Notes: generated from the sequence alone by a model not told the origin. A stretch of DNA of 63,211 nucleotides, filler included, from Phoronis australis (GCA_002633005.1; 8 parts of 8 records of this genome joined end to end with filler, not necessarily neighbours in it); one strand, 5' to 3'; counted from the whole stretch's first letter, positions 169 to 48,295 are shown. Numbers and translations are program-made.

Positions 169-283
169 TAACATAGAATTGCAGTGTTGTTACAAATACA
201 CATCAAAGTCTCAAAATTAATAACCAGTCATTATTCAGTTGATGAAATATGTGATTTGTGACATAAATCTTTGTGTCATACAG

Positions 284-433
284 ATATACTCATTCAACAA
301 ACAGTTCATGCCAAGTGACCATATTGTTCATGTGTGCTGGGCCTGTCAGCTAGGTAAAACAGAATGGAAACAATGGAAAAGGAAGTTTTTAGTTTTGCGA
401 GGACCTGATGTGTTGGTGTTTGATGCACCTCCA
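284..433 (+). CDS. SNTG1: Gamma-syntrophin-like internal exon (PH2 region)
   Basis: cag|...|gtaag, 150 bp, phase 0-0; IYSFNKQFMPSDHIVHVCWACQLGKTEWKQWKRKFLVLRGPDVLVFDAPP resembles the gamma-syntrophin N..F....IV..GW...FLALRG......APP segment. Confidence 0.8.
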
Positions 434-1539
434 GTAAGTACAAGTAATTTGTTACAGCTGATACATGTATTAAAAACTGACTTAGTGACTATGAGACTAT
501 TTTCAAGAGATACGTGAGTAAAACTTGAGGTGCACCTTAAGACCTGCTGCGGAATGGAAATCTGTATTTTCAGGCTTCTTTAAATCCCGCTGATATATGA
601 ATGGAGTATTGCCAGATTGTTTGCAAGAGATATTGAAGAAGTCAAATTAACTTTTAAGTAAAAACACCAGGTGCAGAATGAAAATATGTATTTTTAAGGT
701 CCTTTTCTTAAATTCTGCTGATGTATGAATGTGAACTTTTGAACATTCTGAGACAATTTGTCTGAGGTATTTGAGTAAAACATCCAATTTTCTTAAATAC
801 AAAATGCAGAATGGAAATCTGTATTTTTCAGACTTCCTCAAATTCTGAATGTCATGCAAATTAAACATAGTAGTTCTATTATTTATNTTATAATACCTTT
901 GAAATGAAGTTAGGGATTGAGTTTGTGTCAGTCTAGTTATCAACAGTTTCTGTCTGAAGGTTTTGCTTCTCTTGCTTTTGTACAATGTTGTGTAAAGTTT
1001 TATGGAACGTAGCAGTTCTTTCTCTTTAATCTTCACTTTCCTCCTGGATCTTTGCACGGATTTTTACAAACATTTTGTCAATTGTAAATGGTGTGTACAA
1101 CTAGATAGCTGCAGACTTTTGTTTCATCTAAACCTTTGTTCGACCTATGTAGTGGCACTTGGTATGACTGCTGTGTCTAGGGGGCATTTGTTTACAATGG
1201 ACAATATAAGGGCTGTGCACTACTCTAGTTTAGAGTTCTACTTTAATTGTAAACTGTCCATAATCTTACATTTTTGGAAGTTTTGGTGACTCATTCCCTT
1301 TTGGGATGGCTTCTTAAAAACCAAATGTCAAGAACCAAATTGCACACGCCACTATGTGTAAACTATGTTGTACTAAGGAACTTGAGTTCATTAAAACCTT
1401 TTTGGCAATATGTTTCAGAAGGTGCAGACATATATTGTCTGAATTGTTCAAATAAGTATTCTTGCATGGTCTTATCACTGTTATTGTTCTTTTTTTCTTT
1501 TACGTGTTGGATTAGTAAAGCATTGCTTGTTTGTTACAG

Positions 1540-11587: not shown

Positions 11588-11687
11588 NNNNNNNNNNNNN
11601 NNNNNNNNNNNNNNNNNNNNNNNNNNNNNNNTTAATTAATTAANNNNNNNNNNNNNNNNNNNNNNNNNNNNNNNNNNNNNNNNNNNN
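11588..11687. other. Artificial contig spacer
   Basis: N44-TTAATTAATTAA-N44. Confidence 0.97.
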
Positions 11688-12201
11688 GGGGGCCCGCCCC
11701 CCCCCCCCCCCCCTCCTTGGCTGCCTCAAAAAAATAAAACAGTAAGAGTAGAGAAATGTTGAGTTTATTAATTAACCCCGGTAATTAAAATTATAAGGAT
11801 GAAAAAAGATTTAAATGTGTGCAGTTTGTCCAATTTCTTTGAAGTGTCAAATTCGGAACACGGCGCATTCGTAACGGAACTATGGCTAAGTATAGGCTCT
11901 CCCGCGATATCCCAGGCGACCGCCAGATCGTGAGTTCGAGTCTTAAGTTCTCGCAGTTTTTTCTGTTCGACACGTTCTCCGTTTTTTTTTTTGCCTCTTT
12001 TGTCTTCAGGAATCAAGGAAAATGCTTGATTTTTAGAGGTAAAAACAGAAAAATTTCTTGGGCGGGAGGGGGGCAAACCCCCCTACCGACCTCCACCCAC
12101 GTCGGTGCTATGCGCATCTACAATCGTGGTTCGGTTTGCGCAAATGCTTACAGCCGGACAAAAAGTTGGCCCCCCCTTGTGATATCCTAGATCCGCCACT
12201 G
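11688..12201. mobile_element. CAGTGGCGGATC-type MITE, left end lost in the gap
   Basis: Ends ...CTAGATCCGCCACTG at 12201; G/C-run subterminal motifs. Confidence 0.6.
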
Positions 12202-12274
12202 CTTAGTATCATGAAGTGTGAATATGGATTGTATAATCATGCTTCTGTGCACGCGACCACTAAATTAAAAACGC

Positions 12275-12290
12275 TTATCTTGTGCTGGTA
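12275..12290 (-). CDS. Secreted prepropeptide, putative last coding exon ((C)TSTR*)
   Basis: First good acceptor (tttttgttctacattag|) downstream of the 12537 donor; phase 2 completes TG|T = Cys. Inferred only. Confidence 0.45.
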
Positions 12291-12536
12291 CTAATGTAGA
12301 ACAAAAATTCAAAACAAAGGTGACTTCAAATTTAGAGACAGGATTTCGGACCTTGAGATGTTCTTGTACTTGAAAGATTGTGGATGTTCTCTTTGGTGTT
12401 CAGTGAAAAGGCGAGAGAAGTGATTTAATACGTTGTATTCAAAACGTTTGAAATATCAAGGACATGTATAAAAGCTCACTTTATTTCAGAAAAACAAGAG
12501 GTGACCCCTAAAATTTAAGACACCAACTTTGCTCAC

Positions 12537-12605
12537 CAGAAAGATTTGCTGCAGCGCGAAAACAGCCATTTCTTGCTCTCATCAATGCTTGACGTCTCTT
12601 CATCA
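12537..12605 (-). CDS. Secreted prepropeptide exon: (S)DEETSSIDESKKWLFSRCSKSF
   Basis: tttaattag|...|gtgagc, 69 bp, phase 2-2, compatible with the preceding exon. Confidence 0.7.
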
Positions 12606-13453
12606 CTAATTAAAGAACAGTAGATCTTAATTACTTTACAAATCTCAAAACATTTCAACGGTAATAACAGAAGTATGACCAGCCACGTTCGGGTGAGCCT
12701 TCTTAGATCTGACACCTGTGCATGGAAAGTGGCATTATACTACTGTCAAAGATCGTACGCACAGTCGTAGCTAAAACATGTCGTGTGCACATTTTGCGAA
12801 CACTGCATTTGTTTTTAATAAGAGCGAAATGTTTAAACTGTCATTAAAAATCTTTTTCATTCAGACTAAAGGACCACTCATAAGGCACGTCGTTGAATTG
12901 TTTGCAACTTTTAAGTTGCTTAAAAGCATCTATGTTACGACCCTCTTAGTTAAGACTGGGGTAGCAATCCCGGCGATAAAACGAGCCTCTGTTGTTTTCG
13001 CTTCACTTTTAAAGCATAAAACGCAGTTGTTTGAGACAAAGTGATTTATAATCACAACGTATTCTTCAGCGACGCTCTTTCAACACATAAACCTTTATCA
13101 AAATAAAAACATCATAGACATCAGTTGCGGTGTATCAACAAATCGATGGTACGGTAACAGCTGAACTCCTCTCTAAAAAGTGAACCGGACGTAAAACGCA
13201 AATACATAAAATGTTCCTACTTTAGTAATATCTCTCAGTTGACGAGACTCACTCAACGTTCTATACTAAACCAAAGGAAAAATATCGTTCATGCCTGGCT
13301 AAGATATATCAGGATTACAACCTACACAAACACAATCGTATCGTATTGTTCATAATATCAAGCTTTCATTTTGAATTTGAGTCCCATTTCACAGTCAACC
13401 ACTTCTCCTACACAAAATAAGTTGCTCCGGAAAGTTTTTACGTTTAAGCTTAC

Positions 13454-13541
13454 CTATCAAACTCGTCGTCTGTGTCTGTTAGTTGAGCATCACCCTCTTG
13501 CACCTCGCGGGCTAAGACTTCCGCAAACTCTTCATCTGACA
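13454..13541 (-). CDS. Secreted prepropeptide exon: (M)SDEEFAEVLAREVQEGDAQLTDTDDEFD
   Basis: ttgtag|...|gtaagc, 88 bp, phase 1-2, strongly acidic. Confidence 0.75.
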
Positions 13542-14946
13542 CTACAAATTAATTTGATTCTATCTAGTTCATGTTTCATTCCATCTCAACAGGTGTCATT
13601 ATGAGGATCACGTGACTCACTCGTGGGCTCCAGAATGCTTGGTTTAAGACAAAAAACAAAAAGAATAAGTTACGTGGGCGGCGCAGCACTGAAAAAGTGG
13701 GTGCTATAAGCCCCCCNNNNNNNNNNNNNNNNNNNNNNNNNNNNNNNNNNNNNNNNNNNNNNNNNNNNNNNNNNNNNNNNNNNNNNNNNNNNNNNNNNNN
13801 NNNNNNNNNNNNNNNNNNNNNNCCCTTTTTTTTGCGGCCCTGGTATTTTGCTATCGTATTTTCCACATGAACAATTCTTAACCGTTAAAACCACCACTTT
13901 CTTTGATCAGAGAGGTTTTACAACAAATGTTCACGATGTACATATATATGTAATTACCGATCTAATGGACATCTTTAATAACATGAGATTGCTGTCTGTT
14001 CCCTTTATAATGGAGACTGCCGTGGGGTTTGAAAAAGCAAGGCGCTTTGTCGGTGCCAGTTCATCAACGCAACCAGGTAAATAAGCAAGTCACGATGTAC
14101 AAAATCGATACCTTTTGCAACTGTTTGTGATTAAGAGCCCCAGGCAAATGTGGAATCATATGTTTGAATTGTTACTATCGGGCGCTTTTTTATCTTTTCT
14201 ATAGTTTACATCTATTCATGTAAAAAGTGTGTGTGAATGAGGAAACAGATTCTTAATTTACAAATTGCCTTGGAGCAACTTAGGCTTAACTACGCACGAC
14301 CTGTCAGACTTCATCATTTTTTAATTAAAGATTTCGTGACTGGATGAAAATTATATAGAAAGCTGTATTTCGTTTGCACCTACTGTTTAAAATGAAATTA
14401 AGAAATTAAATTAATTAAACCTGTACTTTGAGATCTCCTGCGATTGAATTGAGACGTTTCATAACTCGCAAAGGCTCTGGACGTGCTTACTGGTAACGGA
14501 AATAACGCACCGTTCTGGTAAGAAAATTTTGTGGACAAAGTTTGCAAGGACAGTCGGCAAGTTTTTTCTTGCAGTTGAATAGATGGAAACGCAATTTAAA
14601 ATACGTTTAAAATTGCCAAGTGTTTTTAAGAACGAGTTTTGTGTCGAAAATGATCCGCCGTAAATCCGTTAACAGTGTCCAGTAAGCATCGCGCGTGACG
14701 TGGTGTTGGTGAATAACACTGCATGATGCGGGCTATGTGAGCTCCCAAGGTACGTCATGGGTGCAAAGGTCACCTTTTTGCAGAATTTTTTGTTTTCACA
14801 TGTACAAGTTGTCAATGAATACATCTGCACTTGTTTAGCGTAGATGATGTTGAAGTAGCATTGCCGTTTAGTGCCTGCTATATATTAGCAGAGTTAGGAG
14901 AATTGTAACACATCTTTAAGTACTCAATGGGAAAATAATAACATAC

Positions 14947-15012
14947 TTTCGTCGTTGCCTCGAACTTTTGAGAAGTCGCGCTCCTCAATTTCCTGGTTCA
15001 ATTCGTTTTCTC
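14947..15012 (-). CDS. Secreted prepropeptide exon: (G)ENELNQEIEERDFSKVRGNDE
   Basis: ttttgtttgcag|...|gtatgt, 66 bp, phase 1-1. Confidence 0.75.
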
Positions 15013-15220
15013 CTGCAAACAAAATGTTTTGTAGCGGACTTTCAGATCAACATTACCCTCGATTTGCTATGTACTATATTTAAAACCTCCACTGTGGGAC
15101 AACTACATGTATAGATGGAAATCCCACGAAACGATCGTCTTTTCACATTCATCAGTTTGAACAAAATTTAACTTAAGGATACCATTAAATTCTAAAAGGA
15201 ATAACTTTAGAACTGCTAAC

Positions 15221-15286
15221 CGTCGATGTCTTGATTGTCAAAAACTTCCCCACGTTTCATCATGTTTTCATTCAAATCATCAGCTT
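15221..15286 (-). CDS. Secreted prepropeptide exon: (E)ADDLNENMMKRGEVFDNQDID
   Basis: ctttcttattacag|...|gttagc, 66 bp, phase 1-1. Confidence 0.7.
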
Positions 15287-16530
15287 CTGTAATAAGAAAG
15301 TGCACAGTGTGGTGGAGTGACGGCAGTGCTTTGGCGAGTTAAGAATCATAAAGCGTGAAAGCAGACGATCAACTATGTACAGTGTTGATGTTTTACAGCA
15401 AAGTCTGATCGTTATTTAAGGTATTGCACCCATAATATTACCGCGGATTGCAATGTGTGGTGCTGAGTAATATAAGCGAATTTCACGCAATTCCTCAAAA
15501 AAGCAATAGAGTTGAATCTGAACTTCCTTGGAAGCAACAAAAATTGACTACAAATCAACCGCCAATTTAAACTGAAACACTCCTACATTTGGCTTGAGGA
15601 CAAACTGCACGGAAACAGACAAGGTGCTGTCGTACAATATTATCATTGTCATTTTCATTGTTACTGTTTTTAACAATGTCATCGTAGTTAAATACTGACT
15701 AACGAATGACAAAAAGAAAATTGCAATTTCGAAATCAGACCAGCTGTTTTGATGTTACAGGCATAATAGGTAATAGATTTGGGTCTTATGCTTCGACTTA
15801 AAAATACTCGGAAACTTTGCTCAGTAGAGAGCTCATTGGCCCATTCCTGTGTATTGCATCGTAGTATAATCAGAAATATGCCAAACATTTTTCTGGCTAT
15901 CAGTGCATTCCAGTTAAGGTTATGTGGAATAGATTTGCACTGTGATGATCAACATGCGATCAGTCAAACAACGAAAGCATCTAAAAATACAATCACATAC
16001 AATATCTTTCAATTTGTTTTTGAAAATGTAATACTTCTTTCACAATAGTTTACGTAAAGTATATTGACTCAATGAATACAATGTGTTCTTTTACATGACG
16101 AATAAATAAATAGATAAATAAGTGTAAAGTAATTTTCAAAATAAACTAGACAGACTTCGAAAGAGCTTTTCTAGACTGCCAGAATTACTTTGGCAGCTTG
16201 ATCGAAAATTTTTGCCAATACAACAATGCTTTAGTCGAAAGTTTAACCGCCAATTGTCTGTATATACTTGCCAAACAAGTTGTTGCAATTTCGACAGCGT
16301 GGATGGAGTATCACCAGTCGAGATTTTGTCAAGATTTAGCCAGAATTGAAACGCCCTCTACTCGAAAATAAATGGTTAATTAGTCGCGGTTTTGTCGGCA
16401 GAAACTTTGTCGATGATGCCCAGTTTATTTTAAAAACTACCGTACGTAAGCTGCATGTCTTTCACCAGTAGCGTGACGGTCGTCAAGAACACAACACCTT
16501 AGTGAATGATATAAACAGTGGAATAGTTAC

Positions 16531-16594
16531 CATGACTCCGAGCCGCGGAAAACGTGGCGAGAAGGCACAACAGCGTTAGAAGGTAAAACTTCAT
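16531..16594 (-). CDS. Secreted prepropeptide, signal-peptide exon MKFYLLTLLCLLATFSAARSH
   Basis: ttttatttccag|AG-ATG...G|gtaact; classic n/h/c signal peptide, phase 1 end. Confidence 0.8.
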
Positions 16595-16897
16595 CTCTGG
16601 AAATAAAACATAGAGCTATAATATTTGACGGAAGTTTTCAGGTTATAAGATATTGTTGAAATGCTTCTCAACATACTACGATGCCATGAAAATAATCGAT
16701 TTAAACAAAAAATAAACTATCCATGTCTGGGAAATACTATGTTTTCATGAAACGGGTTATACCAAAAAATTGAAAAAGAGTTGCATTCAGAAAATTTAAT
16801 AAATGCCTACGACAAAGAAATTTAAAGGTCAAAAACGAAAAATACCTCATATTGAATTTTTTCAGTCGTGAATTTCAGTAACAAAATGCAGTCTTAC

Positions 16898-16950
16898 CTC
16901 TTCAATGATTAGATGAAATGTACAGATTTGAATTCGTCACTCTATATAAA
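16898..16950 (-). promoter_or_regulatory. TATA-like box and short non-coding first exon of the prepropeptide gene
   Basis: Minus-strand TATATAG at ~16948-16942, followed ~50 nt later by a strong donor GAG|gtaaga at 16898/16897. Confidence 0.5.
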
Positions 16951-17259
16951 ACCATACTGTCTAGTATGGGGTATTATGCATCCCGTTGTTGATGACCTGT
17001 AAATTTGTCACGAATTTTCAGGTCCTTGACTTGGCAATAAGTCACGAAGTCCAAACAAGATTCGAACGACTTGCATGCACGATTTACAATGTCTCATTGC
17101 TCTGCAGAAAATCGTCTATGCATGTAGCAATGTGCTTTTCTGAAAAGAAAAATGCTATAAGCTTCCTTTGCTTGTGGGAAGACAAGTGAACATGATTTTT
17201 TGACAACTTTTGTTTGCACAATGAAAATTTCAGTTTTAATAAATGCGTTGGTTTTTATC

Positions 17260-17480
17260 GTAATCTATTTTGCCCGGGGTACGCCACGAGCTATGTTGCA
17301 GAGTAAAACAAGAGGAGGATTGGGAATATTTGTCATTTATTATGACGTAATAGATAAAACTAACTAAGACTCTGCAAGATGGACATGCACAAAACGCCCA
17401 CCGGCGTGTACAATGAATAGCCCTGCAAGAGGGAACAAAACAAAAGAACTGCCTGAAGGGCTTAAAGGAAAAGTACGGAA
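17260..17480 (+). repeat. Dispersed repeat, homologous to 20870-21066 (inverted)
   Basis: Shared blocks CTATTTTGCC, TTATGACGTAA, AAGACTCTGCAAGATGG, CCTGAAGGGCT on two different contigs. Confidence 0.7.
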
Positions 17481-17825
17481 CATGAACACAAAACTTGAAA
17501 AAACCTAGCAGGAAATGTATACGAGCAAAGAGAAAGTGGAACCGCCACCCGGGATGGGGGGTGGGGGAAAAAATGAAGAGAACGAACGTAGGTCTTGTAG
17601 ACGACGAGGTAGGTGGCTGAATGAGAGACCACGTTGAACAGAACAAAGGAAATATGGGCGACCAATCAGGAGTCGCGTAGAGAAACGTATGAATACAAAA
17701 GTAGGCCCTAGAGGCTATAAATAGAGATGAGTAATGCAAAATAAACCCTAAGGACTGGTCTCAAAATAAAGAGACAAGTGTCAAAATAATGACGATAAAT
17801 GCATTTAACAAGTTAAATTTAATTT

Positions 17826-20869: not shown

Positions 20870-21066
20870 TCATACATTTTCTGTAGAGCCCTTCAGGTTT
20901 TTCTTAATTCCCTCAGCTTTTCTTTTCCTATTAGACGCCTGTGTGGTTTTTCCACGCCCATCTTGCAGAGTCTTGTCATTCTACTTACGTCATAATCATA
21001 ATGTGACAACGCTTGTCTTGTTATACTTTTAACATAGTTCGTGGTATGCCACTGGCAAAATAGTTT
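20870..21066 (-). repeat. Dispersed repeat, homologous to 17260-17480
   Basis: Reverse complement aligns by eye with 17260-17480. Confidence 0.7.
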
Positions 21067-21464
21067 GCGATAAATTTGCCTTGAGCAAACGAGCAAAGTC
21101 TCTGTAATTATAATCATATTAACTAATATTTACTTGGATAATTTTTATGAATTATTTGTAGACTGTCTTACACTCATAATTACTTGACTACACGATTTTC
21201 AACCATGGTGAAATGAAAGCGTTAGACCAAATTTTTGTCACTTTTCAGAAACAGAGACCCCTGATGATGAATGTTCACAACTTACGTCCTACAAAAAGTT
21301 TTAAAAGCTTTCAATCTCGATTTGAGACGTGCTTTGCGCGACTATTTGTTAATCCGACTCACGAAATATCGTCGATTTCTAAGACATTCTTTGGCAGTGC
21401 GTGCGCGGCCAACGTGAACTAATTTGTGCGCATGCTCTTGCCGGCGATGAAGATATTGTTTTAT

Positions 21465-23807: not shown

Positions 23808-26570
23808 CTAAAAGACGAGGTAAACCCAAACGGCATGCGCAAACAATAGGATTCGTGCGAATCTCAATGAACTGCTGAGATTTGGAACTGTTGCTACACT
23901 TTCCCAGGTTCCAACCTCGTTCGTAGCATTACACAGTACACCTTTAGATCTGTGGATGATGTCAAGGGGTGTCAAATTTACACTCCCTTCAACGCGTAAT
24001 TTGGAGGGTAGAGTTGTGAATTCATGAGTGTCGCCAGCAGGGGAGACAATTGTGACAGTCGGTGTGGGATCTCCCTCAGACGAGCAAAACACTGCTAGGC
24101 TGCCATTCACTACTCCAAAACTGATTTCTGGAACAGAAGGCTTGGTGCATGTCAGATTGAGATTAACAAATTTCTCATGATTTGGACTCGAGAAAAATGG
24201 TGTATGACAAGTTGGTACATCGACTGCATGCAGAATACCAAATCCGCTTTTCCTAAATAAATCTCGAAAATCTCTCAATAAACAGTTGCAATGAAAAGGA
24301 TTCTTCTTAAGTTTAAGCTGAAAAGGCCTAAGTCTTGCTGTAGCATGTTCAATGATGATCTTGGGCAACACTTGTATTTGGTTGTTAGACACGTCCAAAG
24401 TGTACATATCTGAGAGATTTGGTAGAACAATATTTCCAATTCCTTTTATCAAGTTGTTATCCAAAGCTAAAGAGCGAAGATTGAGGAGCGACTCAAATAA
24501 TTTTCCTGGCACGTGATCGATGTTGTTGTGGCTCAGATTCAGGTTGACCACGCCCCTTAGATTAGCAAACGCGCTCTTGTCTATTGAAGTAATTTCATTG
24601 TGACTTAGCGACAGATGCACTAAATTTTGAAGGGGGCCGTTGAATGTGTATCTATTGATACTTTTAAGGCGGTTATTGCTAAGATCCATTTGTCCCAACC
24701 TAATAAGATCTTCGAAACAACTTTCGTCAATTTTCACTATTTCGTTACCTGACAAATCAATAATGTTTAATAGATTTAAATTGCTGAACAAACCAAGGGG
24801 TAAGTAGTTTATCTTATTACTTCCAAGTGACAATTTTTCTAAGCGTGGCAGTAATTGAAATGTTCCTTGTTGAATGTCCGCAATCAGATTACCTTTTAAA
24901 TTCAAGTTCGAAAGATATGTTAGACCGACAAAAGTATTATTCGTCAATCGCGTGATTTTGTTAAGTTGCAAAGATAACGAAGACACCATCATAGTTTCCA
25001 TATGTGCAAACACCTTATCTTCAATATGAGAGATTTTGCTGCCTGGAATACTTATTTTTTCAGCTCGCACGTGCTGCATAATTGACAATGATAGGATGAA
25101 GGGTTCATTTCCGAAATACGCGACAGATAATTGATCTGAATGTATGTCATGTTGTACAGGACCAGGCAAATTAAATTGAATGCTTAAGGTCTGAGCTGCT
25201 GTCGCCGGAAGTTGCGAGAGTGAATGTACGTGGATAACGAGATCAGTCAACGAGCAGTACTTGAAGATGTCATGTCTTACTTCCGAAAATTCATTGACAT
25301 TCATCTTAAGGTGAGTTAGCGATTGAGTAGGCTTAAAAAGTAAAGCAGGTACGCTTCTAATACTATTGCCAGTCAGGGACAACCTTTGGAGTTGTAATAA
25401 AGTGGCAAACGCATCGTTACTAAACGCTACAATTTTGTTGTAGGACAAAAGAAGGTGCTTTGCCTCAAATAAGCCGTACAGGGTTTCGTTTGTTACAATT
25501 TTCAGCGCATTGTGAGATAAATCTAGATACCACACAATAGGATTTTCTATCCAGTCTTGTTCAATCAGACCAATCTCATTATCATATAGGTCCAAGTGAC
25601 CCAGAAAACGAAGACCATCCATCGCACCTTTTTCAATCGTTTTCAGTCTATTGCCACTGAGGTCAAGAACTCGTAGCAACGGGAGGTGTTCAAACACACT
25701 CCTTTCAAGTCGTTCGATGTAGTTACGTCTGAGGTCCAGCTGTTCGAGTTGAGACAGTCCTCGCAAAGATGATGCGCTAACGGTTGATATTTTGTTATGA
25801 CCGAGATTGAGAGAGAGCAAGGCACCAAGGTTTCTAAACGGCGAGTCCACCAAACCATCGATATGATTAGAATACAAATTGATTACCTCGGCGTTCTCCA
25901 GGCCTTCTAAAAGGTTTGGATGCAAGGACGACAACTGGTTGCGCTCTAAGAAGATTTCTCGAACGTGGCTTCCTCTACTGAGAGCGGTGTTGTTTACGCT
26001 TGTAAAGACATTATCCGTCAAGTATAACCTAAATGGTGTGGACAACGTCGGAAGACAGGAGGCCGGGAATGAAGAAATTAAATTGGATTGCAAGTCCAAC
26101 ATTTTGAGACTTGACATTTCCGAGAAAGCGTTTTCCGAAATCGTCTGAATTCTATTAAACTTTAATTCCAATGTCTCCAGTTGTTTCAAACGAGTAAAAA
26201 CTGCATCCGGCACCACGGACATGTTGTTGTTTCCAAGGTAAATAGTTTTCAGATTTCCCAACTCAGTGAACGCTGTTTCAGAGATTGTCTGAATGTGGTT
26301 GTCTCTTAAGTCTAATGTCCTTACTTGTACTAGGTCATCGAAAATTCCACCTGGAACGAATTTGATCTGATTGCTTCTTAATCTTGCCGTTTTAACACGA
26401 ACAAAGTTCATGCCACTAGATAACATTTGCAGTACGTCCTGTATTCCACAAGACTCTACAAAAATATTTGCCCCGCGTGCAGCGGAAGCGGTGTTTTTTG
26501 TACATGCTTGAAAAGGTTTTACCAGGGAACACAATCCCAGAACAAGGGTAAAACAGGAGCTAAAGTCCAT
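23808..26570 (-). CDS. Intronless extracellular LRR protein (signal peptide, >20 LRRs, LRRCT, Ig-like domain, probable GPI signal), 920 aa
   Basis: Uninterrupted ORF; first ATG at 26570 gives a signal-like MDFSSCFTLVLGLCSLV; LxxLxLxxNxI repeats; NPFHCNC LRRCT; C.SEGDPTP...CNATNEVG Ig; hydrophobic C-terminus with no cytoplasmic tail. Confidence 0.92.
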   Translation of the reverse strand: MDFSSCFTLVLGLCSLVKPFQACTKNTASAARGANIFVESCGIQDVLQMLSSGMNFVRVKTARLRSNQIKFVPGGIFDDLVQVRTLDLRDNHIQTISETAFTELGNLKTIYLGNNNMSVVPDAVFTRLKQLETLELKFNRIQTISENAFSEMSSLKMLDLQSNLISSFPASCLPTLSTPFRLYLTDNVFTSVNNTALSRGSHVREIFLERNQLSSLHPNLLEGLENAEVINLYSNHIDGLVDSPFRNLGALLSLNLGHNKISTVSASSLRGLSQLEQLDLRRNYIERLERSVFEHLPLLRVLDLSGNRLKTIEKGAMDGLRFLGHLDLYDNEIGLIEQDWIENPIVWYLDLSHNALKIVTNETLYGLFEAKHLLLSYNKIVAFSNDAFATLLQLQRLSLTGNSIRSVPALLFKPTQSLTHLKMNVNEFSEVRHDIFKYCSLTDLVIHVHSLSQLPATAAQTLSIQFNLPGPVQHDIHSDQLSVAYFGNEPFILSLSIMQHVRAEKISIPGSKISHIEDKVFAHMETMMVSSLSLQLNKITRLTNNTFVGLTYLSNLNLKGNLIADIQQGTFQLLPRLEKLSLGSNKINYLPLGLFSNLNLLNIIDLSGNEIVKIDESCFEDLIRLGQMDLSNNRLKSINRYTFNGPLQNLVHLSLSHNEITSIDKSAFANLRGVVNLNLSHNNIDHVPGKLFESLLNLRSLALDNNLIKGIGNIVLPNLSDMYTLDVSNNQIQVLPKIIIEHATARLRPFQLKLKKNPFHCNCLLRDFRDLFRKSGFGILHAVDVPTCHTPFFSSPNHEKFVNLNLTCTKPSVPEISFGVVNGSLAVFCSSEGDPTPTVTIVSPAGDTHEFTTLPSKLRVEGSVNLTPLDIIHRSKGVLCNATNEVGTWESVATVPNLSSSLRFARILLFAHAVWVYLVF

Positions 26571-32108: not shown

Positions 32109-32511
32109 GGGACCAGTCTCGAATTTTTTACTCGAAATGGAATTCGAAATTATGTTTGGCATATTTTACTCTACTTTAGTGCGAACTCAAGATAAGTGTC
32201 TATTACTCTATATGCTCGAGTACATGATGACTTAAGTGGATGATTTATTAGTCCTAGTTTGCAGTTGACAAATCCATCATTAAAGCTAAAAATTCGAGTT
32301 TGAACTCGAAAGTTCTAGTTTTCACTCGAGGTTGTAGCATGAATATAAGGTTTTTAAAAAGCAAACTTGGACTAGATACACCTATGCATAAACTATAATT
32401 ATTCGAACACAGTGTGATAACCACTTATCTTGAGTTAGTACAAAAGGAGCAGAGATATTGCCGAAAATAATTTCGAGTTCGTTTCGAGCACAAAGATTAG
32501 AGACCGGGCCC
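32109..32511. mobile_element. MITE with ~50-bp TIRs nested in an element with 15-bp subterminal repeats (~31545-32640)
   Basis: GGACCAGTCTCGAAT...CGAAATTAT is inverted at 32460-32511; flanked by TTCGGAGTA-type tandem 15-mers at 32520-32640 and an inverted remnant at 31550-31610. Confidence 0.6.
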
Positions 32512-36665: not shown

Positions 36666-36900
36666 GAATTGACCTATCGCAAGTTCCGCCCCTATGCGAA
36701 AAGTCACGTGATACCCGACATTCGAACGAGATGTCAGAGGCAAGTGCACTGTCGCTAAACGACGTTCCTGGTGGAATTGATGAGTGTTTTTGCACTATTT
36801 GAAAACGCGTCGGCAGAGACAAGAGGCGATGCTTTTCAACAGTGAATCGTACGTTCATGATATGGGAATTTGTAAAGGTGACGATGAAAAAATAAGTTTC
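36666..36900 (+). mobile_element. Second copy of the GAATTGACCTATCGC transposon terminus
   Basis: Reverse-complement homology to 30440-30658. Confidence 0.7.
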
Positions 36901-37636
36901 AAATATTAACAGTATTAAATCCAACAATTTCTCCAGATTCCAACTTCTAAAAAACTTTGTTCTGTCTTACGATTATATGATTGTCGCTCTTTGTGAAACT
37001 TGTAATGTTACCAAAGACGACCTTGATAATGAACTAATCATTCCTGGTTACAGTGTTTCGTATCACAGCAACAGTGGCCGTGGTATCATTTTATTCACTA
37101 AAAACACACTCTCATTTAAATTATGTCCTAGCTTAACTTGTCCTCAGTTATGCAACTGCTGGATCGAAATTTATTTCGATCACAGAAAAATTTACTATGG
37201 GTTGTTTTATCGCTCACCTTCTCAATCTCCAACTGAAAGAAAACTCTACTTCAAAGCCCTAGCGGATCAGTTAGCGGAACTTAACCGCAATAGCGTTAGT
37301 ATAATCATAAATGGTGATTTCAATGCCCGAAACTCTACATGGTACAATGATGATCATGACAATACGGCCGGACTACAATTGTTTGATATTTTATTGTCTA
37401 ATGACTGCATACAACTAATTAATGAGCCAACCCGTATCACCGACGTTTCTCATTCATGTATTGACCTGTGTATAACAAACAATTTGAGTATCATTGACTC
37501 ATGTTCTGTACTACCTCCTGTTGGCAATTCTGATCACCACACTATCGAAACCACTCTAACACTTAAAAAACCGGTTAAAGAGCAACACACCACTCGAACC
37601 AACTGGAAATATGATCAGGTCGACACCGATAAACTG
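36901..37636 (+). mobile_element. CR1-group LINE ORF2 AP-endonuclease domain, truncated by contig end
   Basis: NINSIK, IVALCET, YRSPS, GDFNAR, NEPTR, IDLCITN, SDH motifs; one frameshift near 36975. Confidence 0.9.
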
Positions 37637-41770: not shown

Positions 41771-41981
41771 AAAGGACTTAAATATCATCTCACACGCTAT
41801 ACATCTTGTTACATCTTGTCGGATTTCAACTTGAAATAGTACGAATACGACATGTATGTCTTAAAGAATTCCGGTTATCAAAGTTCACGGATATATTGAT
41901 TTTTTTCCTGGCCAGTTTTCTTTAAGATAAGACACACCTTCCATCAATGTGTATCGTCTATATCATGCCGATTTTCTCCAG

Positions 41982-42132
41982 GTTTACTACCACAAGTGGA
42001 CCCAGATAATCTGAATGCATTCCCCAATGTGTTCGTCGTGATCGTCACCAAATCTTTCTATGAGGTGTGCGTACCCCACGAAACACTGTTGGTGGGATTT
42101 TCAACCAACGCCATGCATTACCTGCAGACGAT
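41982..42132 (+). CDS. SABATH/Methyltransf_7-type SAM-dependent methyltransferase, internal exon (5' exons not in contig)
   Basis: ctccag|...|gtaag, phase 1-2; FPNVFV....KSFYEVCVP......GFSTNAMHYL corresponds to the family's SFY....P......SS..LHWL motif. Confidence 0.85.
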
Positions 42133-42763
42133 GTAAGTATGTTGCGTAGAAATGCAACTCGCACAAGATACAGTTACCATTTCGTTATCTTTCTTTATAC
42201 AGTTCAGCATTAAAACTTAAATCTCCCGTGTAGTTTCAATTCCAGTCTACAGCCTGTTTCTAAATTGAGTTTAGTCTACGTGTAGATATTAATCTAGTCC
42301 ACTGTAAGCATTTCCGTGGTCTTTTATCAGGATCACTACTCACCGGCCGATTATTTACCACCGTTCAAAGAGTTTCAAAAATCACTCATGAGGTTTACCT
42401 GTTTACCGATATCTAGGACATTTATTTTGCCAAATTTTTATCGTAGGTCTTCGGCAGAATATGGTCTTATATTAACATACCCAGGAATTCAATTTCGGAA
42501 ACTAACCAGATCGAAAAAATAATAGTTTAATTCCACGATATATCGCAACGGATATACGTTAATTGCCGTGATACCATTTTGAATGAGTCAATTGCTCTAA
42601 TGCAAAGCACAGCACCTTAGATCAGATGTCCTGATGAACAGTACTCTTCAAGACAGCCGTAAATCTATTGACGAAGTACAATGCTTTGAAGGAGGCGGAG
42701 TTTCTATTGCCTTCAAAGTTAGACAAGCTGCTTCAATCACCAATTCTTCATTTTCCTTGACAG

Positions 42764-42894
42764 TCCATGCAACATGTCCGGAGCTATCCACAGCTCTGAA
42801 ATGACAGTGCCCGATGAGATAGGACTATTTCGAAGACAGGCAGCCGAGGAATGGGAAAAGCTGCTGCTGGCACGGGCAAAAGAGTTGGCACCAG
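42764..42894 (+). CDS. SABATH-type methyltransferase exon
   Basis: gacag|...|gtacag, phase 2-1; PCNMSGAIH...FRRQAAEEWEKLLLARAKELAPG matches the Q...D...FL..RA.EL.PGG motif. Confidence 0.9.
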
Positions 42895-44936
42895 GTACAG
42901 TACTATATGTTACAATGCTTTTTGGTGTGTTTGGTTACTTTTGGAAAGGGGTGTTGTCCCCTTACCCCCCTAGATCTGCCTTCGTCGTCATTAAGTAAAC
43001 TTAAGCTAAGTTAAACCACATTAAAAAGCGACGGGAGTGATAGTGATTTGAAATCAGCAAAACAATCTTTTAAGATCCTGCCCATTGTTTGATTAAATGT
43101 TGCTGTGTCGTAAGTGAAAAATGATTAGGTATACGAATATGGCTGCAAAGAGACTACGTTTTATTTACATCGGATAGACAAGACAGAGACCTTAAGGGAA
43201 TTTCGTGTTTTTGAATGAATTTGTCAGTTTTGCACATTTCACCCTCTATAAAAGATGTTGCATACCTTGCAGCCAATTTCTATGAACAAATTGTTTAAGA
43301 TAATGTGAGATTTTATTGACGAGTCTGCGTATTTAGCCAAATATATACAGTAAAATTATGTTATTTCTGAAATTAAAAACCTGATAAAATTTGATTTTTG
43401 CCAGTCTATCCTTAATTGGTTCACGTTACCGTGTTTTTCTTTCGTAAAATTTAGCAGAATAGAAATGTACCTTGATAGCAAAAACGAAATCAATAACATG
43501 ATCAGCCATTTTGAGATAGTTTTCTAAAGTTAGCCAAATTCGGACATTGTTCTAGGGTCCTACATAGCTCTCAAGCAACAATTTCTCAAGTGGGTAGTGT
43601 GCTGCACTGGGTATGTTCTGCCGTCAGCTGGTCCGACCAATTTCTCTCTAATGGCTGTTCTCAATGGCTAAGAGGCACCTGCCGATTCAACCGCGACACA
43701 TACGGAACAAATTGACATTTGCCTGGGGTAATTAATCATGCTGGAAACAGGGTAGATTTCAATAACGTTAGGACCTCACTAGGAAAGCAAGGCTTCGCGA
43801 GATTGCACGAGATATTGCGGTATATTTCAAGTGACAACACGTGATTTTGGCTAGATTTTCTACCCGGAAGACTGATACTCAACTGAATCTAAACAAGTAA
43901 CTTTTGACATAAAGGGTTTGCATTGTGCGACTGGCTCACAATGTCACACTTGCGATTTGGAAGTTTATTGATTACATTTTGGTAAAAAAATGTACGAAAA
44001 AGGTAGGTTTAAGTTAACTTTCAAAGTACGTTCGATATGCTATCGCGACCGGTGGACGTAGGATCTATAATAAAAGAAATGCAGTGACACAAACATGTCA
44101 TGAATGACTGAATAGTGGATAAGATAAGTTCCTGAAAGTAGAGAGAGACTGTAGACTTTGATTTTTAACGCAATACGATTATGTCATTAATTAGCAGCTA
44201 ACGTGATGATGTCTTGTTGGATAAGACGAAACGTTGAGTTAACATGAACTTCTTTATTTGTGCGGCAATTGTCCGTTTTCTAATCGTACTTTGGCCAAAC
44301 AATGATGTGATTTCCTGAAAGTAGAGAGAGACTGTAGACTTTGATTTTTAACACAATACGAATATATCATTAATTTGCAGCTAATGTGATGATTAAATTA
44401 AGAAAAATGTACAACCATAGCAAAAGAATGGCCCAAACATGGTCAAATTATATTTCACATAAATTTTTTAAGATGAACACTCAATAACGCTCAGCTGCAG
44501 TTTTCTAATATATTCCGTTTTGTTGTATGCAGCTTTTGACTTTTGCACAAAAATCATTAAAGAAATCATTTCAGCCCCCAGTTCAAGTGAATGTAAATTT
44601 TTATTAACAATTCTTCAGACCATTTTGGAGAACTGAGTGTATGAACCATAACATGTGAATCCTACGTGTAATAGCCATTTCTGAGATGTGGCGTTGCGAA
44701 GCTGGACTCATTTGTAGCGTGTACTAACCTCTACTTTAATTTTCAGAACCAAATTCAACGAGTGTTCATCCATTCGGGGGGGGGGGCGTGATCTTAGAGT
44801 AACTAGCATTGAACACGTATTGCTTCAAATGCGTCCACAACACACGTGACTTAAAAGCAGCACTTTTCCCTGGTCACGACACCTTTGGTGCATTAATGTC
44901 TCGCCTGAGTTTTCATAATATACAAGACTCTTTTAG

Positions 44937-45073
44937 GTGGACATTTCATCATCGGCGCCGGCATGACTGGCGATGGACAATATATGGGGAAATCGAGGAA
45001 CGCGAAAGGAAGCACGTTTCAACTGATGACTTCTCTGTGGAAAAGGATGCTGAGTGATGGTAAAATTACGCAG
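44937..45073 (+). CDS. SABATH-type methyltransferase exon
   Basis: tttttag|...|gtattg, phase 1-0; GGHFII...DGQYMG...LWKRMLSDGKITQ. Confidence 0.88.
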
Positions 45074-45216
45074 GTATTGTTGGTAGTCGTTAAATAACGA
45101 CGATTCTTCGAGGCTTTCATTTACCTGTACTTTTGCGGGGTATTTTTATCTAGCCACCATCTCCCTGGGAAATCTTCAATCTGTGCCTTTGAAGGCAGAT
45201 CTCGCTTCCCACACAC

Positions 45217-45560
45217 TGTTTTCTGCCCTCTCTCTAAGGATCTTGTTCACTGATTGGATTTCCGCGTCAGGTTGATCTGGTTCGTACATCAATGGGAGCC
45301 GTAACCTTAATCCCTGTTAAAATTGGGGCGTCTGGTTTTAATGTACATGTAAGGAAGGTCAAGGAAGCCGTCTACATTAAAATCCCAATTTGAACAGGGA
45401 TTGAGGGTTACAGCTCCCAGCGTTGTACGACCTAATTCTAGAATCAGGTCAACCTGACGCGGGAAATACAGTCAGTGAACAAGGTCCGTAGAGAGAGGAC
45501 GGAAACGTCAGACTCACCAGACTCTCAATGCTTTTCAGTTGGTGATTTACCTATTAAACA
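45217..45560 (+). mobile_element. Penelope-like retroelement remnant with inverted partial pLTR
   Basis: RKVKEAVYIK..PNLNRD*GLQLPALYDLIL (GIY-YIG C-terminus); 45217-45283 is the reverse complement of 45441-45511; hammerhead-like motif at 45469-45515. Confidence 0.75.
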
Positions 45561-45631
45561 TATACAAACCATCTGTTATTTTCATAACATCACATCAACA
45601 TTTGACCCGTGCTAAGCCTTCTGTACTTTAG

Positions 45632-45806
45632 GAGGAATTCGACGACACCAATTTCAAGCAGTATTATCGCACTGAAGAAGAATTCCGTGCCCCCTTCCAA
45701 AATCCAGATTCTGAGGTATCAAAGGCTGGGCTGGAATTGGTGTCCATTCAATGTGTCTTGGTACGATGCCCTTACCACGAGAAGTGGATGCGGGACGGAG
45801 ACAGAG
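45632..45806 (+). CDS. SABATH-type methyltransferase exon
   Basis: ctttag|...|gtaggc, phase 0-1; EEFDDTNFKQYYRTEEEFRAPF...AGLELVSI...CPYHEKW. Confidence 0.9.
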
Positions 45807-47964
45807 GTAGGCTAGTGTAACCCACTCAGGCAGTTTTGTGTCGTGATGCATTTTCTTAAGGGCTAACAGCATAATGTCAAGACTATGAAGGGATATTACA
45901 GATTTCATGGCCATAAACGCATTTTTGAATTGGATGGGATAGACTGCTTGAAGTTACTTGCTTTTGACCAAGGCTATAAAACGACAGTAGTTGTGTTTTT
46001 GCAATTTTATTGGAAATCACCAATTCTTGTCATTGCTTGCCATACATTCGGTGCAATTAAGACCGGTGCATTACCTGTTCTACGTATCCATTTATGAAGT
46101 AGAGTTTAGCTCCGCCTGCAGCGAGTAGTTTGACCGCAAGTAGCAGGTTCAAATACGCATAGCAGCTGATCTCAGAAAATCACCTTTCTCGCAGATTTAA
46201 AGAGATTTAAGACGGTATGTAACAGGACATCGATTATCGAATACGTCTGTTTAGGTGTACCACTACGGTATGTCATCACTAAGATTAGTCTGCGATAAAA
46301 ATACAATAACACAATACAGTATTAAGCTCTCGGGAAGAGGACATGTAATTTCGTGCCTGGCATAATCTCACTGTATACGCGCGTCCTTTCTTTGCATATG
46401 TTAACTGTTTGATGAATACGTGTGAATTTTTACTTCTTCGCATCGCTGGGTCAATTTTGCACAGAGATACTCGATAATAGGCCATACTCAAATAAATTCA
46501 TTAAACAGGCTGCTTAAAATGAATGGCATGTTATAGTGAGAGCATAGATAGTCAGTTTGCAAGCTGGGGAGTTGCATTTTTGGTGATTCCGGATGGGAGG
46601 TTTCATTCAGTCAGTGAATTTCCTTTGTAAAAACTCAAGTTTCCCAAAGAAAAGGCATCACTTTCACAGAAAGATAACATTTAAATGATAAAATAGTGAC
46701 ATTCGACTTACATCTTTCCTTAAAGCATCTAATCCGTATCCAAACAGGCAAATCAAAACTTGCGTTTACGGCCGCTTGTGCATGTTGAATTGAAGCAAAT
46801 GACGGACACGTCATAGCTAAAGAAGAGTGATGACATATCAATCCACTTCACTTTACCAGCCATCTGCAAAATCTCTGTAATGTCACTTTATAATACTGTG
46901 ATTTTTTAAAAAGGATTTGAAAGCTAGTTTATCTTTTATTAACAATGACTAGATAACTTAAAAGGTTACCAAACCCACCTCCCATTCATTAGCGCTAGGA
47001 CCTCGTGAAAAAGCAAAACTTCAAGAGATTTCGTGAGATGTTGCTGTGCATTTTAAATGAGAACACGTGACTAACTAGATTTTAGCTAAGTCCTAGCGTA
47101 GGTCCTAGCGTTACTGAACGCACACCCGGTTTTGGCCTATTAAGATAAATTAAAAACGTCTTTCCCCGACAGTTCTCTGCCGACAACGGTTTGGAAAATT
47201 CCTCAACTTCTTTACACAGTTTGGAGTGTCTAATTGGTAGCGTGACTACCGCCCTTTGGCATGTGTGTTAGCCAAGACCGTGGCAGAAGACTGTCTACTT
47301 ACTGATCTATTTTACAACACGCAGTACATGTATATGTATATCAGATGAATATTGTTTTATTTTCTCAATGCAACTGCATTAGCAGCTAACGGATACAGTT
47401 TTGAGTGTAATCAAAAGCAGTTATAGCCAAACAGCCTTAGTGTTATGGTATAAGCTATCTAACTGGTAAAGCGAAAACAGCTAGAAATGAATGTAAAACA
47501 TGTTTAAGTTTTGTCGTGTTTTCTGAAGACTGCCAGGCAGTTGGGGTGGCTTTCCGAGAGTTCAATCTTTGTTCAGAAATTTTGTCCAATATTCCTTCTT
47601 CGTTTATTGCCATGTAATGTTTACAACAACACAGATTAGCACTTATCTCCACCCATTATCTACTGTACTTGACTAAGAATGAATTGAAAATAGCTGTGTG
47701 GACTTAAACAAAAAATTCTGACGAATATGTAAGTCATAACCAGTGTTTTTTATATAGACCCCTTATTTCAATAGCTGTTAGGGCACGTTCTATTATTAAA
47801 CGTCGGGCGTTTGGTCATATTCTGTACTACATTGTACATGCAGGTACTAGATGCTACTTGCTTGTACGACTGTGATACTTTTCATTACCTATAGTACCTG
47901 TGTGTGCACTTCAGTGTTCAACGCAGTTACTATCAATAATCATAGCATTTATTTTTCATTTAAG

Positions 47965-48206
47965 GCGATGCTAACGCCCGACGCCGGCAAGCTAAGTGGT
48001 TCCTTGGTAGCATACGCTATTGGTCCAATTGGGTTTTCATGGACGCGTTGTCCAAACATCGTTCTAGTGAAGAACGCAAGGATTTGGTTGACCTTTTCTA
48101 CACGTGGCTCGAGGACGCTTTAACAGAAAATCCGGATGACTATCACTTTGATGAAATCCAGTCCATTGTAGACGTGAGGAAGAAAGGAGAACGCGATGAA
48201 CAATGA
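47965..48206 (+). CDS. SABATH-type methyltransferase, terminal exon
   Basis: tttaag|, phase 1; AKWFLGSIRYWSNWVF..ALSKHRSSEERKDLVDLFY...P.DY...VRKK...*; AATAAA at 48262. Confidence 0.88.
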
Positions 48207-48295
48207 CTACGTGAACATGCATTTCACGCAAACAAGACTTCGGTCCACATTAGAAGTATATAATAAACAGAGAGTACAAGATATCTAAACCAACA

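What the first reader, a model, noticed from the sequence alone, without database searches (positions are those of the whole stretch)
12275..16950. Hidden multi-exon gene for an unrecognised secreted prepropeptide (signal, acidic pro-region, KK, cyclic cationic peptide)
Seen: TATA-like box and non-coding exon (~16920-16898), then six phase-compatible coding exons with canonical GT-AG sites (16594-16531, 15286-15221, 15012-14947, 13541-13454, 12605-12537, 12290-12275). They give 122 aa: MKFYLLTLLCLLATFSAARSHEADDLNENMMKRGEVFDNQDIDGENELNQEIEERDFSKVRGNDEMSDEEFAEVLAREVQEGDAQLTDTDDEFDSDEETSSIDESKKWLFSRCSKSFCTSTR. Established: signal peptide, anionic propiece, dibasic site and C-terminal cationic peptide is the architecture of antimicrobial peptide, toxin and somatostatin/urotensin-type neuropeptide precursors. 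Inference: the mature peptide WLFSRCSKSFCTSTR (net +3) forms a six-residue disulfide ring, the ring size of urotensin II and vasopressin, but lacks the FWK motif, amidation signal and neurophysin, so it matches no family I know. The last exon is the weakest part; the mature region could be longer, and a 30-bp exon near 15694-15665 is possible.
Basis: partly seen in the sequence, partly recalled or inferred. Interest (0 to 1): 0.85.

Follow-up and report, generated by a model that had tools for sequence, protein, structure and literature searches.

The report
Orphan peptide precursor with adjustable pro-region
This is a real, spliced and expressed animal gene for a small protein with a predicted secretion signal and a long acidic leader, likely shortened by exon skipping, which is likely cut to release a positively charged defence peptide whose end is probably missing from the assembly.

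Summary
The gene is real. RNA reads from three runs with the same species label join coding exons 3-4 and 4-5 at the stated minus-strand sites, and the depth falls on exons 1-5. The protein has a hydrophobic leader, an 87-residue pro-region (net -26), then KK and a Trp-led cationic stretch. A mixed loose end indicates transcripts that skip one or both 66-nt exons in frame (pro-region 87, 65 or 43 residues). The proposed last exon (12290-12275) has no RNA support. Read accounting favours use of the 12537 donor, and one read suggests the acceptor lies elsewhere; the assembled piece ends 849 nt further on. So the 'six-residue disulfide ring' is not established: the next codon could be Cys, Trp or stop. 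No homologue was found, but only single-exon queries were possible. The phase-0 intron shared by somatostatin/allatostatin-C genes is absent. Best reading: an orphan host-defence prepropeptide of a known architecture (about 0.5). Rivals are a toxin, the leader of a longer protein, or a neuropeptide.

The parts
16942..16948 (-). TATA-like motif
   Evidence: In the sequence; function untested
16898..16920 (-). Probable short non-coding first exon ending at a GTAAG donor
   Evidence: Sequence only; probably too short to lay reads on, bin depth 0
16531..16596 (-). Coding exon 1 (ATG at 16594): predicted signal peptide
   Evidence: Hydropathy peak 2.9 over 9 residues; RNA depth about 5.8x in X3; donor use inferred from the loose end
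15221..15286 (-). Coding exon 2, 66 nt, phase 1-1, likely cassette; acidic; carries a KR site
   Evidence: RNA depth about 7.1x in X3; skipping inferred from about 2 exon1-to-exon4 reads
14947..15012 (-). Coding exon 3, 66 nt, phase 1-1, likely cassette; acidic
   Evidence: Joint 13541/14947 in 11 reads; skipped in about 4 of 13 X3 reads (inferred)
13454..13541 (-). Coding exon 4, 88 nt, acidic pro-region
   Evidence: Joints on both sides; depth 12.6x in X3
12537..12605 (-). Coding exon 5, 69 nt: end of pro-region, KK, start of the Trp-led cationic stretch with one Cys; phase-2 donor
   Evidence: Joint 12605/13454 in 8 reads; donor use inferred from depth accounting
12275..12290 (-).
   Evidence: 0 depth in the gene's orientation in 4 of 4 runs
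11688..12201 (.). Interspersed repeats running to the end of the assembled piece; the true last exon may lie here or beyond
   Evidence: Many reads, mostly 90-99% alike, in both orientations with loose ends; spacer at 11588-11687

Best explanation
The gene is transcribed and spliced, and encodes a predicted secreted precursor whose acidic pro-region likely masks a short cationic, Trp-led peptide until it is likely cut off near the KK site, releasing a likely antimicrobial (host-defence) peptide. Shown: transcription, the exon 3-4-5 joints, strand, open frame and charge asymmetry. Inferred: secretion (hydropathy only); cleavage after KK (mature start Trp, net +2 over the 10 known residues) or after the last acidic residue (KK kept, net +4); in-frame skipping of exons 2 and 3, giving pro-regions of 87, 65 or 43 residues (net -26, -21, -15) in front of the same mature part; a short C-terminal remainder; membrane-directed activity against microbes.
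For: RNA joints and strand. Leader hydropathy. Charge and isoforms. Signal + anionic propiece + cationic mature part is described for aurelin and for AMPs in general (PMC2866484, passages) and for arminins and placozoan arminin-like precursors (PMC12013895, passages); short anionic propeptides neutralise centrocins and strongylocins (PMC10608444, passages). Two sea-urchin AMPs begin with Trp after their prosequence, and the centrocin precursors are about 120 aa (PMC4805251, passages). Helical hydrophobic moment of the Trp-led decamer is 0.53. About 2 reads cross the end of exon 5 against 17 that cross the start of exon 4; a simulation gives P of about 0.01 or less for a layable tail of 160 nt or more even with n halved, which fits a short remainder. 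Read share differs 6-10x between X3 and X1/X2.
Against: No activity data and no homologue: 0 hits. The mature sequence beyond 10 residues is unknown. The pro-region (87 aa) is far longer than the 15-30 residues given for sea-urchin AMP propeptides, and its charge far exceeds what the known cationic part would need. [quoted passage not shown] KK is a weaker convertase site than KR (own knowledge). None of the 5 kappaB-consensus matches in the window lies on this piece. The same architecture is used by toxins and neuropeptides. The depth argument is weak: the tool warns that a dip in depth is no finding, and several counts in it are inferred.
Confidence: 0.5

Rival explanations
1. Exons 1-5 are the signal and acidic leader of a longer secreted protein (lectin, pore-former or thrombospondin-repeat type) whose remaining exons lie off the assembled piece.
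For: The piece ends 849 nt after the donor; coding introns here are 208-1405 nt. The depth accounting points to one X3 read leaving at 12537 with 24 or more unplaced letters if untrimmed. The lay tool drops human-like reads without notice, which could hide a conserved downstream domain.
Against: About 2 reads cross the exon 5 end; a long transcript predicts about half of 19. No loose end at 12537 reached 3 reads in any run.
Confidence: 0.15
2. It is a venom or skin toxin precursor: the acidic propiece is removed to give a small disulfide peptide acting on ion channels or receptors of prey or predators.
For: Same prepro architecture; acidic propeptides ending in basic sites are common in animal toxins (own knowledge). 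One Cys is in the known mature part.
Against: No Pfam or PDB match; no paralogue in the window; low expression in these samples.
Confidence: 0.13
3. It is a neuropeptide or hormone precursor with a C-terminal disulfide ring, for example somatostatin-like if the next exon supplies Trp-Lys after the Phe.
For: Size and layout fit; expression is low and sample-dependent. Cys, three residues, Phe and then a TG|N codon would match the spacing of the somatostatin core if N is G (recalled, not from a call).
Against: All SSRP-like and ASTC genes examined in PMC9048919 share a phase-0 intron in the pro-region (passages; also PMC7536072); this gene has phases 1,1,1,2,2. The C.WK.C motif is not met. None of 44 AG sites left on the piece yields Trp-Lys. 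No neurophysin, and the peptide does not follow the signal.
Confidence: 0.12
4. The acidic chain itself is the working product (calcium-binding, granule-packing or skeletal-matrix protein), with several basic sites giving fragments and exon skipping varying its length.
For: 33 of 88 residues are D/E; there are extra basic sites (KR in exon 2, single R sites); the variable part is the acidic part.
Against: Composition switches sharply to cationic/aromatic right after KK; that the acidic exons can be dropped suggests they are a spacer.
Confidence: 0.1

Closest known systems
Hydra arminins and placozoan arminin-like prepropeptides (PMC12013895, passages)
   Same: Signal peptide, long highly acidic N-terminal region, basic C-terminal part, possible cleavage after acidic residues
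   Different: No sequence match found; C-terminal Gly not seen in the proposed end (true end unknown); low expression here; a Cys in the mature part
Sea-urchin centrocins and strongylocins (PMC4805251, PMC10608444, passages)
   Same: Signal + anionic prosequence; the mature peptide can begin with Trp; centrocin precursors about 120 aa
   Different: Prosequences of 16-30 aa against 87 here; no interchain/light-chain layout or six-Cys pattern visible
Aurelin / damicornin / AmAMP1 (PMC2866484, PMC11767717, passages)
   Same: Aurelin has signal, anionic propiece and cationic mature part
   Different: They have six Cys; only one is known here; no Pfam match for exon 5
Somatostatin / allatostatin-C / urotensin II precursors (PMC9048919, PMC7536072, passages)
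   Same: Short secreted precursor with a C-terminal peptide behind a basic site
   Different: No phase-0 pro-region intron; no C.WK.C; ring unproven

Membership tests
Prepro-type cationic host-defence peptide (architecture class) | N-terminal signal peptide | tested here: met
   Hydropathy 2.1-2.9 over windows starting at residues 3-9, Lys at 2, small residues at 16-18; SignalP was not available
Prepro-type cationic host-defence peptide (architecture class) | Anionic propiece | tested here: met
   87 aa, net -26
Prepro-type cationic host-defence peptide (architecture class) | Cationic amphipathic mature peptide | tested here: inconclusive
   Net +2 to +4 and moment 0.29-0.53 over the 10-13 known residues; remainder unknown
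Prepro-type cationic host-defence peptide (architecture class) | Processing in vivo and antimicrobial activity | not testable with these tools
   Needs peptidomics and assays
Somatostatin / allatostatin-C | Phase-0 intron in the pro-region | tested here: not met
   Phases 1,1,1,2,2 against PMC9048919 and PMC7536072 passages
Somatostatin / allatostatin-C | C-terminal disulfide ring with FWK/IWK or FXP core | tested here: inconclusive
   Last exon not found; 0 of 44 local AG sites give Trp-Lys
Urotensin II / protostome SSRP-like / consomatin | C.WK.C motif | tested here: not met
   The known Cys is followed by SKSF; motif from PMC9048919
Vasopressin/oxytocin | Peptide directly after the signal, followed by neurophysin (recalled definition) | tested here: not met
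   An acidic 87-mer follows the signal; no Pfam match for any of 5 exon queries
Arminin | Sequence homology and C-terminal Gly for amidation | tested here: inconclusive
   No hit with short single-exon queries; true C-terminus unknown
ShK-type cnidarian AMPs | Six-cysteine ShKT domain | tested here: inconclusive
   One Cys known; no Pfam hit; downstream exon missing

The most novel reading that the evidence does not exclude
The founding member of an unrecognised peptide family in a poorly sampled invertebrate lineage, in which in-frame cassette exons tune the length and charge of the masking propiece (and remove one KR site) and so control how or where one mature peptide is released.
Probability: 0.25. 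Interest if true: 0.6.

Novelty: new member of a known kind. Interest (0 to 1): 0.38.

Why it matters
Short, many-exon peptide genes are easily missed by annotation and homology search (own knowledge). This one is confirmed by RNA and had no detectable relative in the searches run, so it is a concrete new candidate defence or signalling peptide. The apparent splice-tuned propiece is an unusual, testable twist. The interest is limited because the architecture is well known, and neither the mature peptide nor its function is established.

Tried and rejected
Homology with single-exon queries (they include some intron-derived residues, so sensitivity is low): 0 hits in the 5.8-billion set (longer proteins only, 1 candidate scored), 0 among 1.84 billion representatives at E 0.001, 0 in PDB sequences, 0 Pfam families for 5 of 5 exon queries, no usable Atlas hit for exon 5 or exon 1, 0 exact matches in metagenome contigs. 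No search of the large databases used the spliced protein, so a real family could be missed. No paralogue in the window. Read-through of the 12537 donor (Phe-Trp-stop, AATAAA at 12485) was considered and judged unlikely: 0 of 348 X2 solutions pass 12537 and all 14 full-length solutions end exactly there; all 213 untrimmed-compatible X3 solutions of 3843 contain such a read. Exons 2 and 3 as a tandem duplication: not significant (25/66 identical, p 0.20; protein p 0.13). Rfam: 0 matches on the piece. No kappaB consensus on the piece. The taxon could not be placed: LRR protein hits were 22-31% identical among the 120 listed of 675, no exact record, no hit for a methyltransferase exon. No whole genome is held. 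The run search listed no indexed RNA holder; the raw-read runs came from the same species label. Run X4 laid 0 contigs on exons 4-5. Earlier scan findings: none in 3 look-ups. Literature searches listed nothing on this gene or on splice-varied acidic propieces; these few term searches do not show absence from print.

Full report
Setting. The window is animal DNA, probably invertebrate (GC 0.395, CpG observed/expected 0.85). Seven identical spacers of 44 N, TTAATTAATTAA, 44 N divide it. I infer that they join unlinked pieces, so the gene lies alone on a 6.1-kb piece (11688-17825), and the LRR and methyltransferase genes elsewhere in the window are not shown to be neighbours. No whole genome is held and the taxon could not be placed.

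Gene model. The six stated exons have AG/GT borders and give an open 122-codon frame with intron phases 1,1,1,2,2. Three raw RNA runs with the same species label were laid twice. One search shows the joints 13541/14947 (X1 2, X3 9 reads) and 12605/13454 (X2 3, X3 5), all first mate +, which fits a minus-strand RNA; 15 of 26 joints were displayed. Bins holding exons 1, 2 and 3 have depth in that orientation (X3 about 5.8x, 7.1x, 7.9x) and repeat-free intron bins have none. In one search, 22 of 25 laid reads are 99%+ identical. The exon 1-2 and 2-3 joints were not displayed, the 5' non-coding exon is untested, and the optional 30-bp exon has no depth.

Exon skipping. X3 has 9 reads running from exon 4 into exon 3, and 4 more with another loose end of agreement 0.7. 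Its first 12 letters equal the alphabetical tie of the exon 1 and exon 2 ends, and the rest equals exon 1. The simplest reading is two exon1-to-4 and two exon2-to-4 reads, about 4 of 13. Exons 2 and 3 are both 66 nt and phase 1-1, so the frame is kept: pro-regions of 87, 65 and 43 residues, net -26, -21 and -15, the shortest without the KR site. This is inferred from one consensus in one run; the tie-breaking rule is assumed, and splicing noise is not excluded.

The 3' end. No read in the gene's orientation covers 12205-12504. Enumerating the X2 depths, none of 348 solutions reads through 12537, and all 14 full-length solutions put one read end exactly on it with 17 letters left; 17 letters may be too few to place, so X2 is neutral on exon 6. 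In X3 all 213 untrimmed-compatible solutions contain such a read, which would then carry 24 or more letters. Pieces of 18-20 letters were placed, yet nothing was placed at 12290. That is one inferred read, and reads average 145 nt, so trimming could explain it. I put exon 6 at roughly one chance in three. The piece ends 849 nt after the donor, its last 500 nt are repeats, and two of the four confirmed-range introns exceed 849 nt, so the last exon may be off the piece. The split codon TG|N can be Cys, Trp or stop. The disulfide ring is thus a guess. Few reads cross the end of exon 5 (about 2 against 17 at the start of exon 4); simulation disfavours a layable tail above about 120-160 nt, but the tool warns that dips in depth may be filter artefacts.

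Protein. A hydrophobic leader of about 18-20 residues is followed by the acidic pro-region, then KK and a Trp-led stretch that is net +2 over 10 residues, or +4 if cleavage follows the last acidic residue. Read share is about 1.0, 1.7 and 9.8 RPKM in X1, X2 and X3; tissues are unknown.

Mechanism. Most likely (0.5) the chain enters the secretory route, the anionic part shields the cationic part, a protease cuts near KK, and the released peptide acts on microbial membranes. Only transcription, splicing and composition are shown. Support is by analogy: aurelin and AMPs generally (PMC2866484, passages), arminins and placozoan look-alikes (PMC12013895, passages), centrocins and strongylocins (PMC10608444 and PMC4805251, passages; PMC11767717, passages). 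Against it: an unusually long propiece, low expression, no kappaB site on the piece, no homologue. Rivals are the leader of a longer protein (0.15), a toxin (0.13), a neuropeptide (0.12) and an acidic functional chain (0.10). The somatostatin lead arises only if the next base is G; the spacing resemblance is recalled. It fails the phase-0 intron feature (PMC9048919 and PMC7536072, passages; their gene-structure figures and supplements were not seen).

Novelty. No relative was found, but queries to the large databases were single exons of 21-40 residues, so this is weak evidence. The architecture is a known kind, and no named family's defining test was met. Verdict: a real, expressed, apparently orphan prepropeptide gene with a likely splice-variable propiece and an unresolved C-terminus; new member of a known kind; interest 0.38.

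Noticed in passing
window 23808-26570, minus strand: Intronless 920-aa leucine-rich-repeat protein with a signal-like start and a hydrophobic end; the 120 listed database hits are only 22-31% identical.
   Followed up: partly
window about 41980-48210, plus strand: Multi-exon gene read by eye as a SAM-dependent carboxyl methyltransferase; weak Methyltransf_7 match for one exon (E 0.019, below cut-off), no hit for another.
   Followed up: partly
window 36896-37636, plus strand: Endonuclease domain of a LINE-type retroelement, cut by a spacer.
   Followed up: partly
window 224-517, plus strand: An exon-like stretch resembling a syntrophin-type PH domain (recalled resemblance; no matching Pfam hit).
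   Followed up: no
window 3124, 11588, 17826, 37637, 48609, 50138, 60663: Seven identical 100-base spacers (N44, TTAATTAATTAA, N44), probably joining unlinked pieces; gene order across them should not be trusted.
   Followed up: yes
window 11690-12201, 14600-14870, 17250-17820: Interspersed repeats whose copies are abundant in RNA; the last has a back-joint 17820 to 17254 in all four runs and resembles 20873-21074.
   Followed up: no
window 32109-32511 and 45220-45505: Long self-inverted elements about 70% identical, MITE-like.
   Followed up: no
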